A stretch of DNA of 64,000 bases from Rhizodiscina lignyota (Eukaryota), in assembly GCA_010015805.1 (NCBI GenBank), contig ML978121.1, positions 620,001 through 684,000 on the forward strand. The letters are read 5' to 3'. Shown here one piece after another: positions 10,429 through 20,900 of this stretch (position 1 is the first letter of the stretch; each line of letters opens with the position of its first letter). The translations under genes were made by a program, and so were the position numbers. Below the pieces are notes generated by a model. It worked only from the letters and a program-made list of their open reading frames with translations, did no database searches and was not told the origin of the DNA.

Positions 10429-12332
10429 ATGTCTAGTCTTACACCTCGTTCTCCTTACTCCAAGGAGGAGTTAGAGAAGCTCTATCCTAAAGACCTCCAA
10501 CTACAACTTGTCCAAATAGTATGTCTCTTTCCTTACATAAGACATGTGATTTGGTTACACCACTAACGCTCAAATTAGCTCCTCAGACATGGTCAGTTCC
10601 ATACACGATCCATGATGTAGTGGAGAGTCTCACATTTGTCAGGGGAGAGAAGTCCGGTGTCTCCAAGGTTCAGAAATGTGAGTTCGAAGAGTTACATGAA
10701 TTCGGCCACGGGCTTACAAGTCTTAGGCCGGCCTCCACCCTTGTAGGCTATGATATCCGCTTCTGCCAAAACCTTTGCTCACCAGCACCTAGACTGGCCG
10801 TACTGCAATGCTGCTCGTCGGATGAGGGGTGTCATTCTTGGCAGTGAGGATCATTCCAAGTGGGACGTGATGGAGTACCGAAGGCGACTCGAGACTTTTG
10901 GTCAGGACGATGGCCCAATTGTTGCGTCAGGTCCAGGGAGCGAGTTTGATTCCATTTGGTTTGTTTCCTTTTTGGGCGGCGAGAGGGGCATATGTGCTAA
11001 TGCTCGAAACAGTCAGCCTGGAGAGCTCACAGACAAGGGCCGGGAAACCACGTTGGCATTGGGCGAACGCCTCAGGCACCTTTACGTTGAACAGTTGAAG
11101 TTCATGCCGCGATTGATTTCAGACAGTGATATGATATATCTACGTGCTACACCGCTCCCTCGAGCTCTGGAATCCGTGGAACAGACGTTCTGGGGTTTTT
11201 ACCCACCAAGCGCACGTACTGCGGACTTCCCACCACCGACCATTCTTACCAGATCCCCAGCGGATGAGACACTGTACCCCAACGATGGAAATTGTCGAAG
11301 GTTCGCACAAGTCACCAGAGCATTCGCTCAAAGAACAGCTGATAGATGGAATGATACTTCCGACATGGCATATCTCACCAGACTCATCGGCAAGTGGATG
11401 CCAGATGATTCCAATCGCGTTGCAGTTGATTCACATCCGCGACTTTCTGGCATCATGGACACCATTAATTCAACCCTTGCCCACGGTCCAGAAACTAGAC
11501 TTCCGAAGGAGTTTTACGACAAGAAAGCCGCCGAGATAATCGATAGGATCGGGGTTGAAGAATGGTTCTCCGGCTACGCTGAGTCTCGAGAATATCGAAT
11601 GCTCGGTATTGGCGGACTCATGGGTGATGTTGTAGGTCGTATGGCAGGCAGCGTTGAGCGCCGCGGCAATGATGGACTCGTGCAAATTGGGGGTGAGAAT
11701 GGCGAGCTTGGAAAAGGTCGAGGAGGAGAGACGAATATCAAATTCGCACTTTCTGGCTGCCACGACACGACTCTTGCAGGCGTTCTTTCCAGTCTTGGGG
11801 CTTTCGATGGTGAAAAGTGGCCTCCGTACACCAGTCACATCGCATTTGAGCTCTTCCAGAAAGAACCATTGCCAGCGCCAAGTATAGCTCCCGGTCAAAC
11901 ATCAGCAAATGACAACGCATTGCCGGCGGCAAAACAGACACAGAGCTGGTGGTCATCTCTGTTCGGAAGCACAAAAAGTATCAGAAATGCGAGCGTCCTT
12001 AAGCCAGAAGGAATGTCTCGAAAGACCGTGGACGAGCTGACCGAGAACGAGCGGCAGAAGTTGAACGGGTATTTCGTTCGTGTTCGTTATAACGACCGTG
12101 TGATGACCATTCCGGGCTGCAAGAACGCTGGCAATCACCTGGAGGGGGACGAGTCTTTTTGTACCCTGGTATGCGCAACTCGAACTACTTATACCAGCTT
12201 GACTAATTCGTTGCATAGGAGGCATTCAAGGCCATTGTGGACAAATACACACCGAAGCATTGGAAGAAGGCATGCATTACCAATCTCGACGAACCGGCAT
12301 TTCCAGAGAAGCCGGAACCGGGAGGCTATTGA
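10429..12332 (+). CDS. Histidine acid phosphatase family protein (multi-exon)
   Basis: Spliced N-terminus LQLVQI|LLRHG|ERSPVSPRFRN|AGLHPY|WPYC gives the RHGxRxP motif. Also GELTDKG, RALES and GCHDTT (HD motif). Last exon EAFKAIVDKYTP...GGY*. Confidence 0.9.
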
Positions 12333-12805
12333 TGGCCAGTTTCATGTCCTCAGCACCTCCTCGACTATTACTATGCTCGAAGACTTACATAGATTGGCGT
12401 TACACTTTACCTTGTGGGATACAACTTTCGCCTGTCCCGAAATGTTCCGATTTTCAATGCTCAATATCCCCATCTCGATATCACTCCGATCACTAATTGT
12501 TCCGGGCTCACATCTGCCAAGGTCCTTTATATTGTTGCCAACTGGGGATTAGGAGAAACCTTGGCGACGGAAATAGAATAAGCTCAAGTCTGTGGGGTGC
12601 AGAGCTTGAAATACTGTTTTATATTAGTATACAGCCGCACATCTACGATGTCTAAGAAAGTAGTCGTGTCACCTTTTCAAGTGTACATGAAGATACGCCT
12701 TCTTTATCTTCAAACCCCCAAAACCAAAGATAGTTCGATCCTTTCGCTAGAAGTGTATTTCTCGCGAGCTTGACTACTCACAGACCGCATGGGTGGGGGC
12801 CCGGA

Positions 12806-14379
12806 CTATCTGTCGAAGGACTCAATGGCCATCGTTCCCGGAGCTGACTCTCTCTTTTCCTTTGGAAAACCATCCTCCTTCGTAGCTTCGAGATTGCGGA
12901 ACTCCATTGTCTGTCTTGCCATTTTTCTACTCAAGTCTGACAGCATTCGCCGCTGACGGCTGGTAGTAAAGTTTCTGAACCCATTCCACACCTCCATTCG
13001 CGGTTCAAGGTCAGGTTTGCGATCCGGATTACTGGCCATGTCCCGCAGCTCTCTAAGCACATTTCTCTGCTCGTAGCCTTTCAATTTGGAAAATCTGCGG
13101 GTGAGATCTTCTGCCAAAACACGCTCGTGCATCTGGTCGCCCTCACTCCCATCCTCGTGACGGTTCCGCAAACTCTCCAGCGGTTCCCAACCCGTCTTCG
13201 CCCAGTCGCCGCTCTTGCCACCAGCCTTCTGTACGACGTGGCAGCCGCTAATTTTCATCAGTTTGTCAACAGCCTTTCCCATATCGAAAACGGTGAGCGC
13301 TGTAACCATTGCGGCGTGCAGAGCTTCCATTTCTACGCCAGTCTGCCCCACGCTCTCGCACTGGGCTTCAATCAAGACTCCACCCTTATAAGCTTCCAAC
13401 TTTCCAGCTCCACTAAGTCGTACTGCCAGATCTCGTCGCCATGATGGAACGCCTGTGAACAGCTCTAGATCGACTGTGACGCCAGTTAATGGAATGGGAT
13501 GGCATAGAGGAACGATGTCTGGTGTCCGCTTTGCAGCTTGGATTCCAGCCAAGCGTGCTACTGACAGTACATCTCCTTTTGCAATTTCGTTCTTCTGGAT
13601 TAGCGCTGAGGTGTCGGAGTTCGAGAAAAATACGCAGGAAACGGCAGTAGCAGTTCTGATGGTGACCGGCTTCTGGGAGACTGTAACCATGTGGGCTGCA
13701 CCCTGCTTATTGACGTGTGTGAGGCTCGTTGCAGGGGACGCTTCAACTTCTTCCGTGTTGCTCTGGTCAAGTTGCTCCTTCACTGCCCTTTCGAGCGGGT
13801 GATTCTCAGAGTCTGACTCATGAACCCTAGTTCCATGGAAGCGAATCATACTATCCCCGCTCTTGGGTTCCCGGTTCGCTTTGGTTAATCGTTGTAGCCG
13901 TGCTAAAGCTTCCGCTTTCCTCTCGTTGGCTAGCCCTCGCGCTTGTCCAAGAAGCGTGCCAATGTCCCTTTCGATCTCCTCAAGGCTTCTTGGTCCTGTT
14001 CCATTGTCGGTGGCCTGAAGCTCACCAGTCTCTTTGCTAGGTTCTCTAGTTGATGCCTGGGCTGTCCCGTCTTGCCCACTTCCACTCTTTGGTTCTGTGC
14101 TGCTCAAAGGGATATCGACATCGTCATCATCATGGAAGTCCTGAGTCTGCTGTCGCTCTTGCCGGTTTTCATGCTTAAGAGGACGCCGCGCTAATTTCGA
14201 GCCCCATGTTGTGAATAGTCTGGCTTGGGATGGCAGGAACCGCGTTTCTGAACATAAGCCCGGAAGCACGTGGGGCGGGACAGAGAGAGGCCATCTTGCT
14301 GAAGTTAGAGGGATTCCAGAGGATCGTAAGCTTGCCACTGAGCTACTTTGGATTGGAGCGTTGCTACTGGCAAAGCCAT
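12806..14379 (-). CDS. MOCS1B: Linker plus MoaC (cPMP synthase, MOCS1B) exon of the MOCS1/cnxABC locus
   Basis: LTHVNKQGAAHMVTVSQK, KGDVLSVARLAGIQAAKRT, PLCHPI, GQTGVEMEAL and KAGGKSGDW are canonical MoaC motifs. An acceptor TGCTGATGTTGTTGCAG ends at 14380. Confidence 0.92.
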
Positions 14380-14592
14380 CTGCAACAACATCAGCACTTG
14401 AAGTACGCACGCAACATTCACCATAGAATTGAGAACGGATAACGTGATTATACGATCTATTTTCTAGATCAAGTGAAGGGACATTGGTATCGAACGCCGT
14501 CCCATGCTCCGAGACATGCATCCAAACAGTTCATGAAATGATCGTAAAGACATGTAATCATCGCTCGTAATGAATGCCTTCGTAGAAGAACG

Positions 14593-16115
14593 TTACCCAC
14601 CAATCAATATCATCGGCCGATTCTCCATGTTCTCCAACTCTCCCATGCCAGCATGTTTCTCCTTCTTCCGTTTTACTGCCGCGCCAATCACACCCAGCAG
14701 CTCTCGTTCGCGCGCTCCCCAGCCGAGTGGTGTACCTGGAGGTAGAAGGCCTTGGTGGCGATCCATTTCGACCCGTTTTAAAGCCTCGAATGCTTCATCG
14801 TCTATTGGCTTACCCCCATTGCCTTTTCGTAATAGGTCACGCAGTGATACTTCTGCGTTCCCATGGAGACAAACTTTCAGGTTGCCATCAGTTGTGATGC
14901 GGAGGCGGTTGCATGTTCCGCAGAAGTCGTCTGTCATACTTGTGATGAAGCCGATTTTGCCGACGAAACCTGGAATTTCATAAGTCTTGCTGGTGTCGTT
15001 CTTGTGTCCTGTAACCCTTTGCACATCAGGATACTTGGCTCTTATCATATCAAGCATCTCGCCATATGGGAACATCTTCTCTTGCTCCCACTTATTACCG
15101 CCAAATGGCATGTACTCGATAAATCGCACCTCGAGGTCCTTGTCGCGGGCGAACTCTACGAATGGGATGATTTGATCGCGGTTGACTTTGCGCATGACGA
15201 CACAGTTGACCTTCAGCTTGATATTTGCGCCCAGGCTCTTCATTTCCAGTATTCGATTAATACTCTTCATCACCGCGCTATAACCATCCGTCCTTGTTAT
15301 GATCTTGAACATGGCCGGATCGAGCGTATCAAGGCTCAAATTGACCCCAGTTAGACCAGCATCTACCATACTATCCAGTTTACGGTGTAACGCGAAGCCG
15401 TTGCTCGTCAATGCTAGCTCCTTTAGACCTTTAGAGCGTAGCGAACCGATCGAGTGCATGAGAGGTAGGATGTCCCGTCGAACAGTCGGTTCGCCACCCG
15501 TTAACCGGATTTTGGTGACACCCTCTGAGACGAAGAGGGAAGAGAGGTAGTATATCTCAGGGGAAGTGAGTAGGTGTTCCTTTGGCGACAATTGTACGCC
15601 CTCTAATTAAAGTTAGCTCGGTGTCGCCTACAACGTGCCTGTCTACGCTCACCCGCTGGCATACAATATGTACAACGGAAGTTACATCGCTCGGTGATGC
15701 TGATGCGCAAATAGTCATGGTGGCGATTGAACGTATCCGTGAGGAACTCGGAGAACGGCTTTGCCTGCTTTATAGCTTCGCGTCTGCTCGACAGCGGTGA
15801 AGGTCTTCTAGGGTCTACGGCGAGGTCTGACGATTGGGGAGGAATCTCGACACGAGGCTGATGTATAGAAGCCGCCGTAGCAGCAGTCCTGAACCGCGTT
15901 GGAGCTTTATTCCAGCCATTGCCACTGGCTCGAGATGCAATGGTGAACGCATTGCGACAACTTCGAACCTTCGTTCGGCATATAAAACCTTCCGCCATGA
16001 TCTGTGTAGTTACAGCTCCACAGAGCGAGAGAGAAACTTCATGTAACCATGTCGCGCGAGTGTGGAAGCAGTGCTGAGCCCAACGTACTTTTTGCCATCG
16101 CATATCGGCTGCCAT
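14593..16115 (-). CDS. MOCS1A: MoaA radical-SAM GTP 3',8-cyclase (MOCS1A), 2 exons
   Basis: [19 protein letters not shown] (CX3CX2C), [28 protein letters not shown] and C-terminal RPMILIGG*. The start ATG is uncertain (16115, 16100 or ~15998). Confidence 0.95.
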
Positions 16116-16407
16116 TTGCGATGACTAACGGATGATCACTGCCCGATTTAGCGTACATAGGCGTTGAACCCCGTGTCGAACTCGCTTGGGCCGCATAACG
16201 AGGCATTCAATATGGACGAATAAGGAGGCACCATCGTGACCGATCGGTCTATTTTGTATTTGCTGTTGTGTTCACCTGAACCCAGAACAGCGCCTTTCAA
16301 TCGATGAAAGAAAGTTATCCACACTGCTCAGTCTAACTCTACCTTCAAACCACTTCACATCAAGGTCGAACTGTGTATCAGAGCATGAGGATTGACTCTT
16401 ACGGAGC

Positions 16408-17855
16408 ATGGCGCCGCCAACAACATCTTTCACAACCTCCCGGATAAATGGGTCAACTTTCCTGATTGTAGAGACTGACGATTACGGTGAATGGCCATTC
16501 ATCTATGCAAAGCAACATCCGACTGAGCCGATTCTCATCCTATCTGATACGGGCTGTAATGCCCCCCGGGACAAGTCAGTCAAGCTTTCCAATCTTCGCG
16601 AGTATCTGGAAACATATCCTATCTTCGAAAATGGAGGAAGGCCCCTTAATCCAATCGTGAAGAGTAATGATGGGAAAGGGTCTTGTGAGAGAGAATACGT
16701 CGTGATTTGTTCTGTAAGTCGATGCTGCCTGCGTTGAGCGTCAGTTCTTATCTTGTGTCTTTGGTTTCTATATTTGCACTTAATTTCATTTCTAATTGTC
16801 AATCCTAGCACTGCCATTACGATCATATCGGCTGTATTGAAGCGTTCTCGACCACCACAGCCCAGAACACAACGAAATCATTCATCGTAGCATCATCACA
16901 CGACCCAGATTTCATCCTCAAGGATCTTCCCACGCATTCTCTTTGCCGCTTCAAAGACCCACCAATCGAGACACCGAAATACAGTATCACGCACTGGGCC
17001 CATGATTACGGCAAACTCTACGCAGATCCGGAGCAGGGCATCTACGTGAGAGGCAAATTGCCGAAGATTCAAGATGTCAGCCACTTAAAGTCACTTGGCA
17101 TCACTTTCTTGCACACGCCCGGGCACACCCCTGATTCTCTAGCATGGTGGGATGAAGACGAGCGATGGCTGTACGGTTCGTGAATCAGATCCTTTACCTT
17201 ATCACAAAGGAATTGAAGACTAATCCCCATTCAAGTTGGAGACTCCTTCTACGAGCGCCAGAAAGAAGACATGCCCATCATCTTCCCCGCAGAAGGCAAT
17301 CTGCTGCACTTCTTTCACTCAATGCAGCATTTGCTCATCTTCGTTCGATCCGAAAACGCTGCCGAAGAGCGGAGGACAGCAGAGAGGGAGCGCGAGAGCA
17401 AGCACGATTTTGAAGTGCTCTCACGACGCATCAAGGTCGGCTGTGCACACCAAACCGCAGGCGAAGATGCCGAGGAAATGATCATGGCTACTCTGCGACT
17501 GATTATGGCTATCGTGGCTGGCAAGGTACCGGTCATCAGTTCGAAAATGCAGCGCGGCGAGCCAGTGGATTTGTGGCGGGAGTCGAAGAAGGCACGGTTC
17601 TCAGTCCTTGGCCCGAGACGCTTGATTGAGGACGTCAGAGACGAGATCGAACGGTGCAAGCGCGAAAAGAGGCCAATACCGCTCGATTTCAACAAATCAG
17701 TAGAAGACATAGCGGTGCCGCAGAAACTTTGTGGTCCAACGTGTCAAGGCAGGGTACGGCAAGAGAGGCGACTCAATGCTCCAAGGTTTGTAATGTACAG
17801 CTCGAGCACTACTGCTATCTCTCTGCCTGGGCCATTTGCGGCCGATCCAAGATAG
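16408..17855 (+). CDS. Metallo-beta-lactamase-fold hydrolase (3 exons)
   Basis: LILSDTG, spliced S|HCHYDHIG (HxHxDH), HTPGHTPDSL, GDSFY and later GCAH. Confidence 0.85.
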
Positions 17856-17900: not shown

Positions 17901-20900
17901 CTATGCATCTATCATCTCTTCATCAGCTTCGCCATCAGCATCAGCATCAGCATCAGCGTCCGCATCCTCATCAGCATCGCCATTATTGACCTCTGCACCA
18001 TTTGCTCCTCCAATTCCAGCTACCAAATCCACATCACCTTCTGCATCGCCCTCCGCGTCGACATCATCCGCTTCCGCGCCAGCTTCAGTATCGTCATTCG
18101 CTTCATTCTCTTCCCCAGCGTTCCGTACCATATCTTGTTGCTCAGTCTCGCTGTCCTCGATTCCATTCACGACCTCACCAAGCTTGCTTCTAGTTCTCCT
18201 CGCTGCTGCTGCCGCACTCGCACCCATTCCCGTAGGAGTGTCAAGACCTCCAGCTGCGCCGTTAGTATATGACAGTGACAGATTTCGAGGGGTGTTGGGT
18301 CTGCGTCTGGATCCAAACGGTCTGGACGATCGCCTCTTAGATGAGGAAGTTGAGTACTTGGTATTGCTCTTGGCGCCTTTCAAATGAGGGAAGACCTGGA
18401 ACCTTGAAGGCGGAATTTGAGCCATCAAAGTCTCATCCGAAGGTACAGATGTAGTATCGCCAAACCCGCCATTCAACTTGGGCGTGGACGGGTTGGTCTG
18501 TCCCGGTGATTGTAGCTCAAGCTCACCAGCCGGTGTCACTAACATGTCGGTGTCTTCATCTTCTCCGTTCGTGACATGCGACGCTTGACTCTTTGCCTGT
18601 TCCATTTGCACTCCTTCTTCGGCTTCTTCTTCTTCATCTTCTCCATCTTCATCCTCCCTTTGCGCCACGGTATGTATGGCCGGTCCGTCTTCGTAATGCG
18701 AAAGATTGTTTCTTCCCATGACGTATGGTACCCACATCAGCGCGTCTGGATTGATCTTGGGATGTGGCTTCTTCTCGTTTTTGGTGATGTACTCTCGGAA
18801 GTAGTCATAGTCTAGCCGAAGCGCGTACGTCTTTGTGATCGGATCGCGAACTAGAGCGCGCAGGCCTTCGAGCGCAGAGACGATATCATCGGGAGTCATA
18901 CCGGTCCGTTCCGAGAGCGCGGTTATGCTGATTGGGCCTTTCTGATCGAGAAGCTGTTTACACAGCACGAGTCGCCAGTAACCGCGGTAGGAAACGAGAC
19001 CCATGTCACTGAGAGGTTTCTCAGGGCTGCCCGTTTTCTGCTCCACTCGGGTAAGCAGATAGGAGAATTCGATGAGGAAGTGACCGAAGCCTTTGCGCTG
19101 GTGGATCGGCAGGACCAGGATACAAGATACGTTATTCAAGCTACTCGGTCGCTTTTCTTTAGAGAAGTAGCCCACGAAGTGGTGTCCGAACTCGTCACTC
19201 TCGGTCATAACGTAGAAGAGGAAAGGTTCCACGTCGTAGTAGAGAGTCTTTGAGCCAAGAAACAGCTTTGCAAGAAGGCAAAGATTCTGGCAATAAACAG
19301 GGTTTTTACGACCATCGACTTCGAAGAATGAATATTTGCCATCACGATAAATTTCGTCACCAGGCGGGTTCTTTGCAGGACATTTAAGCTAGAACACCAT
19401 CAGTCACCGTTCTTATCACTGTGCATTAGGGTACCGTACCTTGTGTCGCCACGCTACATAGTCGGAGTTCATGTACTTCAGACAGAACTCGCAAATGTAG
19501 AGCACGCGATTCCTGCTGTATTCTTCTGGATATGGTGCAGCATGCCACGTATCTATTTCGTAGCCGCCGAAGTTGATGCACTTAATCTTGCTTGGGGGTC
19601 CGGAGGCTTTCGGGGTCGGCTTGGCAGCGTCCATTGCGATCAGAGCTGCTGTCTTCTCCCTCCACGCCTTTTCTGCTAGCTGTCGCGCATGCTCGAAGCG
19701 TTCGCGGTCGGTCTTTTCGGGAAATGTCTTAGAGGTATCCGCTTCGGCTTCTGAAAGGATGCCGCCGTAAGGCTTCTTCAGCTCGTCCGACTCCCGGTCA
19801 TTCAGGAACAGGCTTTGCACGTATGTGCTCTGGATCGCAGGATAATGTGATGGTTCCACATTAGGAACGATTTGTGGTGTTGCCATGATTTTGCGCTTAT
19901 CGCGATTGGTGCGTTTCTTCTTCTGCTTTTGCGACAGGATCGCCTGAAGGCGTACAGGGTCAAGGTTAAACGATACAATTCCTATACCACCCTCAACGAG
20001 CGTTACGAGTGGCTTTTGTGACTGGCGAAGGCGTCGTGTTCTGCGCAGTCTTGGTGAAGACTCTTCATCAGTTACTGCGTCCTTAGTGCCGTCAATCGCA
20101 AGCTCTTCGGTAGCTGCCACTCGTGTTGCTTTTGGTGAAGCGGACGATGTTATTGCAGCATCACCGTCACTCGCAGATGCAGAGTCGGAAGGTCTCCTGC
20201 GCTTTCTTTCCGGCCGGCGTGTTGTGCCTGCCTCATCTGACGCCTTTCTTTTTCTAAGCGAGCGCGAGCCATCCATGGGATCATCGTCGAGAATGAGGGT
20301 GTTAAACACTGAATGTGAGTCAGGCTTAATCGCTCCACGATGTGCTGGCAGCAAATCGCGCGTGATTTTGGGCGCAGAGGAGCGTCTGCGTGACGACGAT
20401 GCACCCATTTGCTTTGCGTCTGGCTGTAGATCATTTTCAACGCAATTACTGCATCGCCAATTTTCTGGCTCTTTATCACAATCAGCTTGTGAGACAGCAC
20501 TGTTTGCACGTTGATATCCCTTACCATCTTCAGGCCCAAGAGAGTTAGCGTCGCGGGCGCATTGCCGATGAGCTGCAGGACAAGCACATTAGGTCAGCCA
20601 AGCTACTATCCGTTTCTGCAACCGCAAAGCTTGGACAAATATAAAAACTTACCGTTATCCCCGCACACTGCGCAGGAAAGATATTCCTCAAATTCCTCGC
20701 CAGGGTCGTTGTCTTCGTCTTGTCCACAGAATCTACTATCATGTTAGCAAATTCCAATTAATTCTGTAATATTTGGAATCCAATATAGCGGCAGCGAGAC
20801 TCACATGCACCTGTTTGGGTCGACGGTTTCTGCTTCCGCTTCTTCACCAGCGTCGCTTTCCGCCTCCCATTCATTCTCTTCGTCAGATTCACTGCTCACG

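What the first reader, a model, noticed from the sequence alone, without database searches (positions are those of the whole stretch)
14380..14601. Splice switch inside the MoaA Gly-Gly-stop makes either MoaA-GG* or a MoaA-MoaC fusion
Seen: the minus strand reads ATT G|GTGGGT AA, so a donor starts at 14600 inside the first Gly of the terminal IGG*. An acceptor with a branch-like site (TGCTGATGTTGTTGCAG, ending 14380) lies 221 nt away. Both junctions are phase 1, so splicing gives ...MILI-D-GFASSN..., running in frame into MoaC. Known: MoaA/MOCS1A needs its C-terminal GG for activity, and splice-fused MOCS1A/MOCS1AB products are described in animals and fungi. Inference: intron retention yields active MoaA, while splicing yields an A-inactive fusion that supplies MoaC. 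Splicing efficiency would then set the ratio of the two Moco step-1 enzymes. The ORF track shows them as two unrelated ORFs.
Basis: partly seen in the sequence, partly recalled or inferred. Interest (0 to 1): 0.7.

Follow-up and report, generated by a model that had tools for sequence, protein, structure and literature searches.

The report
Fungal MoaA-MoaC gene with splice switch

Summary
Observation confirmed: donor G|GTGGGT at 14600, branch GCTGAT, CAG at 14380, 221 nt, phase 1/1, reading MILI-D-GFASSN into MoaC. It is the genome's only MoaA and only MoaC. The mechanism is published for N. crassa nit-7 (PMC7232280), with the same donor position and a 237-nt intron; retention rises on nitrate and the fusion is cleaved in mitochondria. 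No RNA run was available, so splicing here is inferred. Relatives support it: 36 of 37 keep GGT GGG (2.6% expected); a blind rule reaches MoaC from this donor in 10 of 16 loci, from the donor 4 nt on in 0 of 16. Two additions. (1) In 20 of 29 relatives exon 2 begins N-TRR, so the +4 donor would rebuild Gly-Gly-stop by splicing; this genome lacks both signs and fits the retention-only, Neurospora type. (2) The linker carries a processing-peptidase-like motif (RLFTT; 30 of 45 relatives, 2.7 expected), so the fusion is probably a MoaC precursor. The scan noted this gene type on other DNA before (three notes; one with the 4-nt donor shift). New member of a known kind; interest low.

The parts
15653..15998 (-). 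Exon 1, from the likely start ATG 15998. First 40 residues are presequence-like (8 R/K, 1 D/E); holds the radical-[11 protein letters not shown] motif. In-frame ATGs at 16115 and 16103 are alternatives.
   Evidence: N-extension length fits homologs (median 85 aa before YLRIS, 115 proteins); start inferred
15603..15652 (-). Intron 1, 50 nt, GTGAGC...GCTAAC...TAG
   Evidence: gives CMPAEGVQL as in P0001
14593..15602 (-). Exon 2 as read when the switch intron is kept: rest of MoaA to [13 protein letters not shown] (451 aa in all)
   Evidence: Pfam PF04055 and PF06463 above cut-off; model
14593..14601 (-). Gly-Gly-stop codons GGT GGG TAA, overlapping the donor GTGGGT (14600-14595)
   Evidence: GGT GGG in 36 of 37 relatives
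14380..14600 (-). Switch intron, 221 nt, phase 1
   Evidence: not seen in RNA
14591..14596 (-). Second GT 4 nt downstream (GTAACG), lacking G at +5; with acceptor 14380 it would give GG-WLCQ-stop. Read as a decayed form of the second donor of relatives.
   Evidence: decay is inferred
14590..14591 (-). GT at +9 (GTTCTT), same offset as the minor, non-essential N. crassa donor 1469; poor consensus, probably chance
   Evidence: GT at +9 in 3 of 37 relatives
14519..14521 (-). Intronic ATG in the MoaC frame; its first 40 residues are acidic (3 R/K, 5 D/E), not presequence-like
   Evidence: an in-frame intronic ATG in only 3 of 14 relatives
14390..14395 (-). Branch site GCTGAT (A at 14391)
14380..14382 (-). 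Acceptor CAG; exon 3 begins A-TGG (no stop in the +4 frame)
13724..14379 (-). Linker of 219 aa: basic, Ser-rich first 75 residues, then acidic
14207..14221 (-). RLFTT, mitochondrial-processing-peptidase-like motif at linker residue 54 (residue 503 of the fusion); predicted release point of MoaC
   Evidence: motif pattern recalled, cleavage not tested
13217..13690 (-). MoaC domain, the only one found in the genome
   Evidence: PF01967, 152-156 bits, cut-off 27
12806..13216 (-). C-terminal tail after MoaC and stop; the fusion is 973 aa if no further intron is removed
   Evidence: no Pfam match here

Best explanation
The locus is the ortholog of N. crassa nit-7 and human MOCS1. One transcript from about ATG 15998 carries a mitochondrial presequence, MoaA (GTP 3',8-cyclase), a linker and MoaC (cPMP synthase). 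If the 221-nt intron is kept, translation ends at Gly-Gly-stop and gives active MoaA (451 aa). If it is removed from the donor inside Gly-1 to CAG 14380, Gly-Gly and the stop are lost and a 973-aa MoaA-linker-MoaC protein is made. Its A part is inactive and serves to carry MoaC into mitochondria, where MoaC is cut free, probably near RLFTT at linker residue 54. How often the non-consensus donor GTGGGT is used sets the ratio of the two enzymes. Shown here: sequence anatomy, single copy, conservation of donor, acceptor phase and motif. Taken from N. crassa: both transcripts exist, both are needed, regulation by nitrate, release of B. Inferred only: that this organism splices at these sites, and the cleavage site.
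For: Anatomy and frame. One MoaC and one MoaA match in the genome. Same donor position and similar intron length in nit-7, with genetic proof (PMC7232280). GGT GGG in 36 of 37 Pezizomycotina-like loci, 61-82 identical residues of 100, against 2.6% from Gly codon usage in the same genes. Blind branch rule: reaches MoaC from this donor in 10 of 16 loci, from the +4 donor in 0 of 16; relaxed rule 14 of 16. All 119 of 120 annotated long homologs that hold NRPMILI continue with a GNN-coded residue, D in 62. Shuffle control 23 of 2000. Linker motif in 30 of 45 de-duplicated annotated fusions, 2.7 expected. Human MOCS1AB linker has a predicted MPP site (bioRxiv 10.1101/429183, passages).
Against: No transcript evidence for this organism. 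NCBI's model of this gene (P0001) uses the same donor but an acceptor about 720 nt away (MILI-ANREPK). Three nearer in-frame phase-1 AGs exist. The annotated homolog junctions are gene predictions and not independent. One relative (L029, GGC GGG) did not reach MoaC and one (L039) got no acceptor call. The motif was found in only 4 of 14 metagenome loci (0.86 expected), and in the window alone its shuffle probability is 0.076. In N. crassa the linker did not act as an import signal.
Confidence: 0.85

Rival explanations
1. Same donor, different acceptor: the fusion is made through 14464, 14338, 14299 or the annotated 13879 (722-nt intron), not 14380.
For: All are phase 1 and open into MoaC (for the first three; P0001 junction for the last). 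N. crassa has a minor second splice form, so mixed use occurs.
Against: Only 14380 has a strict branch at the usual distance. It gives D, the commonest junction residue (62 of 119), and puts RLFTT at residue 54, where many Dothideomycete homologs have theirs (49-56). The annotated acceptor would delete the motif, and P0001 also skips open-frame stretches elsewhere.
Confidence: 0.08
2. MoaC is made on its own, from ATG 14521 by reinitiation on the unspliced RNA or from a separate transcript; the splice signals are not used.
For: The MoaC frame is open for 50 codons inside the intron and has an ATG. A bicistronic reading was discussed for A. nidulans cnxABC (as cited in PMC7232280).
Against: An intronic in-frame ATG is present in only 3 of 14 relatives and the 14521 peptide is acidic. 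In N. crassa separate NIT-7B stays cytosolic and does not complement. It does not explain the fixed GGT GGG codons.
Confidence: 0.03
3. Active MoaA comes not from a full-length intron-retaining RNA but from a short RNA that ends inside the intron, or from a splice that starts after the stop (GT at 14591).
For: A retained transcript would have a 3' untranslated stretch of at least 1787 nt, a possible decay target (general knowledge). N. crassa has a minor donor at the same +9 offset.
Against: In N. crassa the unspliced form was amplified across the intron and the +9 form is not essential. GTTCTT is a poor donor and GT at +9 is not conserved (3 of 37).
Confidence: 0.1
4. The +4 donor (14596, GTAACG) is the one used here, either with 14457 or 14397 to give a fusion that keeps an internal Gly-Gly, or with 14380 to give GG-WLCQ-stop.
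For: GTAACG matches the U1 consensus at as many positions as GTGGGT (6 of 11 each). Phase-2 AGs exist in the open MoaC frame. 20 of 119 annotated homologs have MILI-GG junctions.
Against: It lacks G at +5. In relatives the +4 donor never reaches MoaC by the blind rule (0 of 16). The phase-2 AGs have no strict branch in front as first YAG. An extension after Gly-Gly should impair MoaA if the tail must enter the active site (PMC9026282, passages).
Confidence: 0.04

Closest known systems
Neurospora crassa nit-7 (NIT-7A / NIT-7AB; Wajmann et al. 2020, PMC7232280; Probst et al. 2014 known only as cited there)
   Same: One locus for MoaA and MoaC. Intron starts at the second base of Gly-1 and encodes Gly-Gly-stop. 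Similar length (237 versus 221 nt). Retention gives A, splicing gives A-linker-B. N-terminal presequence. GT at +9.
   Different: This gene has an extra 50-nt intron after the CxxxCxxC motif (nit-7 has a single intron). Linker 219 aa and a 137-aa tail after MoaC, against about 135 aa of linker in nit-7 by its table coordinates. No expression or genetic data here. The cleavage site was not mapped in the main text of the N. crassa paper.
Human MOCS1 (MOCS1A / MOCS1AB; bioRxiv 10.1101/429183, passages; PMC9026282, passages)
   Same: Same logic: Gly-Gly-stop kept or removed by splicing; AB has an inactive A part and is cleaved to release B; linker has a predicted MPP site.
   Different: Human uses partial or whole skipping of exon 9 (types II, III), not intron retention, and its linker works as an internal import signal, which N. 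crassa's does not.
Aspergillus nidulans cnxABC (known here only as cited in PMC7232280)
   Same: Single fungal locus with both domains.
   Different: Discussed as bicistronic; its junction was not examined here.

Membership tests
MoaA / MOCS1A (GTP 3',8-cyclase) | Radical-SAM domain with CxxxCxxC | tested here: met
   PF04055 61 bits, cut-off 29.5; CNFRCTYC
MoaA / MOCS1A (GTP 3',8-cyclase) | Mob_synth_C domain with CxxC-x13-C for the second cluster | tested here: met
   PF06463 124 bits, cut-off 37.4; motif
MoaA / MOCS1A (GTP 3',8-cyclase) | C-terminal Gly-Gly | tested here: met
   [13 protein letters not shown]; its need taken from PMC9026282
MoaC / MOCS1B | Full MoaC domain | tested here: met
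   PF01967 positions 1-136 of 136
nit-7 / MOCS1-type split locus | Single locus, MoaA stop followed by MoaC on the same strand, no other copy | tested here: met
   (six-frame search; lower bound)
nit-7 / MOCS1-type split locus | Splice signals that remove Gly-Gly-stop and join the frames, donor inside Gly-1 | tested here: met
   N. crassa coordinates
nit-7 / MOCS1-type split locus | Both spliced and unspliced RNAs exist | not testable with these tools
   No RNA holder listed; X1 is a DNA-like contig
nit-7 / MOCS1-type split locus | Mitochondrial targeting of A and AB | tested here: inconclusive
   Composition only: 8 R/K and 1 D/E in 40 residues from ATG 15998; no predictor was available
nit-7 / MOCS1-type split locus | Release of B from AB by proteolysis | tested here: inconclusive
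   Motif enriched in homolog linkers (30 of 45; 4 of 14); cleavage itself not testable
nit-7 / MOCS1-type split locus | Splice ratio regulated by nitrogen source | not testable with these tools
   Genome has 7 PF00174 matches, so Moco users are present; which is nitrate reductase was not checked
Two-donor subtype seen in relatives (not a named family) | G at +5 of the +4 donor and a stop codon at exon bases 2-4 | tested here: not met
   Window has GTAACG and A-TGG

The most novel reading that the evidence does not exclude
The Neurospora model is the derived exception. In most filamentous ascomycetes the switch is a choice between two donors four bases apart that share one acceptor: the first gives the MoaA-MoaC fusion, the second (GG|GTRRGT, overlapping the stop) is joined to an exon that begins N-TRR and so rebuilds Gly-Gly-stop on a spliced RNA. 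This genome, like the Sordariomycete-like loci, has lost the second route (GTAACG; TGG one base from a stop) and relies on retention. The linker is the old MoaC presequence, kept as an internal processing-peptidase site (R-x-F-T-T at residue 54) that frees MoaC in the matrix.
Probability: 0.55. Interest if true: 0.35.

Novelty: new member of a known kind. Interest (0 to 1): 0.17.

Why it matters
For this genome it corrects a gene model (the public one has another start and skips most of the linker) and explains where the only MoaA and MoaC come from. The switch itself is established, so surprise is small. The side results matter a little more. If the second donor is real, the one studied fungal case (N. 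crassa) is not typical, and measuring 'unspliced' RNA would miss the active-MoaA message in most filamentous ascomycetes. The linker motif names a testable site for the release of MoaC, which the N. crassa paper saw but did not map in its main text.

Tried and rejected
RNA evidence: no RNA holder listed. The one run (X1) is a contig identical to the window with no joints; it may be the assembly's source and says nothing about splicing. Looked for +4-spliced transcripts among the 42 de-duplicated metagenome loci with a MoaC hit: none of the 16 Pezizomycotina-like ones has the MoaC frame open through the stop; five distant loci do, with other architecture, not followed. The +9 GT: not conserved, treated as chance. 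ATG 14521 as a MoaC start: rejected. NCBI acceptor 13879: rejected as a likely prediction error, not disproved. The idea that D at the junction is a conserved functional residue: dropped, because a fixed T at exon base 2 (start of the second stop codon) explains D, G and A there in most loci. The careful tree did not finish; only a quick tree with 7 of 48 branches at SH-aLRT 95 or more was used, and the outgroup row was skipped. Gray and Nicholls 2000 (PMC1369970) is not held, and the supplement of PMC7232280 (Fig. S2, Linker-NIT-7B strain, primers) could not be read; both may bear on the novelty of the two-donor route and of the linker motif. PMC4528330 and PMC5817353 (passages) gave no splice detail. 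A sequence look-up in earlier findings returned two unrelated bacterial notes. No structure or complex prediction was run; not needed.

Full report
Check of the observation. The minus strand reads ATA TTG ATT GGT GGG TAA at 14610-14593. The GT at 14600 follows the first base of Gly-1. GCTGAT (branch A at 14391) and CAG ending at 14380 close a 221-nt intron, and the joined frame reads NRPMILI-D-GFASSNAPIQ and runs on into MoaC. The upstream frame matches PF04055 and PF06463, the downstream one PF01967, all above cut-off. Six-frame searches of the 33.4-Mb genome found one match for PF01967 and one for PF06463, both here. In 2000 dinucleotide shuffles of the 300 nt after the stop, 23 gave a strict branch with an in-frame open acceptor. 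A protein 100% identical over 99% of the MoaA query is labelled Rhizodiscina lignyota by NCBI (P0001); the other named hits are nearly all filamentous ascomycetes.

Gene anatomy. The likely start is ATG 15998; its first 40 residues have 8 R/K and 1 D/E, as a mitochondrial presequence would, and the distance to the conserved core fits homologs. A 50-nt intron (15652-15603) follows the CNFRCTYC motif. With the switch intron kept the product is 451 aa ending in Gly-Gly; with it removed, 973 aa: MoaA without Gly-Gly, a 219-aa linker, MoaC and a tail. The start and the tail are inferred.

What is known. I read the whole main text and tables of PMC7232280; its supplement was not readable. N. crassa nit-7 has one intron, 1460-1696 (237 nt). 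NIT-7A is 1-1467 with its stop, so Gly-Gly is 1459-1464 and the donor is the second base of Gly-1, exactly as here. A 1461T>C change that removes the donor stops growth on nitrate. The unspliced RNA rises on nitrate. A plus AB complement, A plus separate B do not. B is released from AB after import; AB without its presequence stays cytosolic. A minor donor at 1469 is not essential. For human MOCS1 I saw passages of bioRxiv 10.1101/429183: exon 9 skipping, and a predicted processing-peptidase site in the linker. For the need of Gly-Gly I saw passages of PMC9026282. Gray and Nicholls 2000 and Probst et al. 2014 are known to me only as cited.

Test of the donor in relatives. I dropped 9 near-duplicates and split the 107 left into 37 Pezizomycotina-like loci (score cut chosen by eye; 61-82 of 100 residues identical) and 70 others. 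Of the 37, 36 have GGT GGG and one GGC GGG; Gly codon use in the same genes predicts 2.6% (342 control codons, six other conserved Gly columns all mixed). The 70 others show 13 codon pairs, GGT GGG in 21. Among 120 long annotated homologs, 119 hold NRPMILI and all 119 go on with a residue coded GNN (D 62, G 40, A 10, V 5, E 2; 20 GG), as a phase-1 donor requires; these are predictions, not transcripts.

Test of the acceptor. Sixteen of the 37 loci include MoaC. A blind rule (first strict branch, first YAG after it) reached MoaC from the Gly-1 donor in 10 of 16 and from the +4 GT in 0 of 16; two loci had no strict branch and four failed. A relaxed rule, written after seeing that output, called 29 of 37 loci; 14 of the 16 reached MoaC, L029 did not and L039 had no call. 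In the window both rules pick 14380. Against this, NCBI's model P0001 joins the same donor to an acceptor about 720 nt away, and three nearer phase-1 AGs are open; none has a strict branch by my scoring.

A second route in relatives, absent here. In 20 of the 29 called loci exon bases 2-4 are a stop codon, against 12 of 556 codons further on in that frame. Splicing from the GT four bases later (GG|GTRR, overlapping the genomic stop) to the same acceptor would then give exactly Gly-Gly-stop. All 15 called loci with G at +5 of that donor have the stop, against 5 of 14 without (Fisher p 0.0002; loci are related, so this overstates it; I had seen the pattern before this count). GT directly after the genomic stop, which completes that donor, occurs in 15 of 37 loci, against 0-5 at the next eleven offsets. 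On a quick, weakly supported tree the stop appears beside Lecanoromycete, Leotiomycete, Vermiconidia and Pleosporales proteins and in an unnamed clade, and is missing in the two loci that group with Sordariomycetes and in several Dothideomycete-like ones. The window has GTAACG and A-TGG, so the +4 splice would give GG-WLCQ-stop, and no other AG rebuilds Gly-Gly-stop. No transcript of the +4 kind was found, so this route is inferred.

The linker. Its first 75 residues are basic and Ser-rich, then it turns acidic, and RLFTT sits at residue 54. The pattern R-x-[FYL]-[ST]-[STA], recalled as a processing-peptidase site, occurs in the first 120 linker residues of 30 of 45 de-duplicated annotated fusions with a D junction (59 before de-duplication), with 2.7 expected from shuffles, often at residues 49-56. 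It occurs in only 4 of 14 metagenome loci (0.86 expected), and for the window alone the shuffle probability is 0.076. I read it as the likely release site of MoaC; this is not shown. An independent start at ATG 14521 is unlikely: the peptide is acidic and only 3 of 14 relatives have an in-frame ATG in the intron.

What could not be tested. No RNA run is listed; the one run is a contig identical to the window. The genome has 7 PF00174 matches, so Moco enzymes are present; I did not check which is nitrate reductase.

Verdict. Real, correctly read, and already established in N. crassa at the same base position: a new member of a known kind, confidence 0.85, interest 0.17. The two-donor route in relatives and the linker motif are modest additions (probability 0.55 together, interest 0.35 if true). 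Three earlier notes of this scan describe the same gene type on other DNA; I did not test them, and they are not counted as support.

Noticed in passing
L006, L021, L038, L050, L057, L063, L066, L070, L071, L077, L079, L092, L094, L104, L105, L117 and others (after NRPMILIGG): Exon after the switch intron begins N-TRR in 20 of 29 loci, so a donor 4 nt downstream would rebuild Gly-Gly-stop; tied to G at +5 of that donor (15 of 15 versus 5 of 14).
   Followed up: partly
window 14207-14221 (-) and homolog linkers: Processing-peptidase-like motif (RLFTT here; RAFST, RLFST, RLYSS in homologs) at a similar distance from the junction.
   Followed up: partly
window 12806-16206 (-), protein P0001: The public model starts in another frame near 16206, skips about 720 nt of the linker and two open-frame stretches in and after MoaC; probably mis-annotated.
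   Followed up: partly
P0004, P0005, P0008, P0009, P0011, P0013 and L012: Several Dothideomycete fusions, mostly Pleosporales, have linkers of about 550-1100 aa (L012: 737 aa, open frame), against 45-100 aa in most other groups. No explanation sought.
   Followed up: no
L029: The only Pezizomycotina-like locus with GGC GGG; no splice from that position reached MoaC, whose open frame starts 612 nt on. May use another architecture.
   Followed up: no
L010, L034, L043, L044, L052: Distant loci in which the MoaC frame stays open through the MoaA stop codon (overlapping frames).
   Followed up: no
window 12806-13216 (-): About 137 residues follow the MoaC domain, with no Pfam match and an internal RNFTT word like the linker motif.
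   Followed up: no
window 10747-12552 (+), 16809-17855 (+), 17901-19388 (-): Neighbours: a histidine phosphatase (PF00328) converging on the MoaC end, a metallo-beta-lactamase-fold gene (PF00753) diverging upstream, and a MOZ/SAS acetyltransferase (PF01853); no sign of a Moco or nitrate cluster among these.
   Followed up: no
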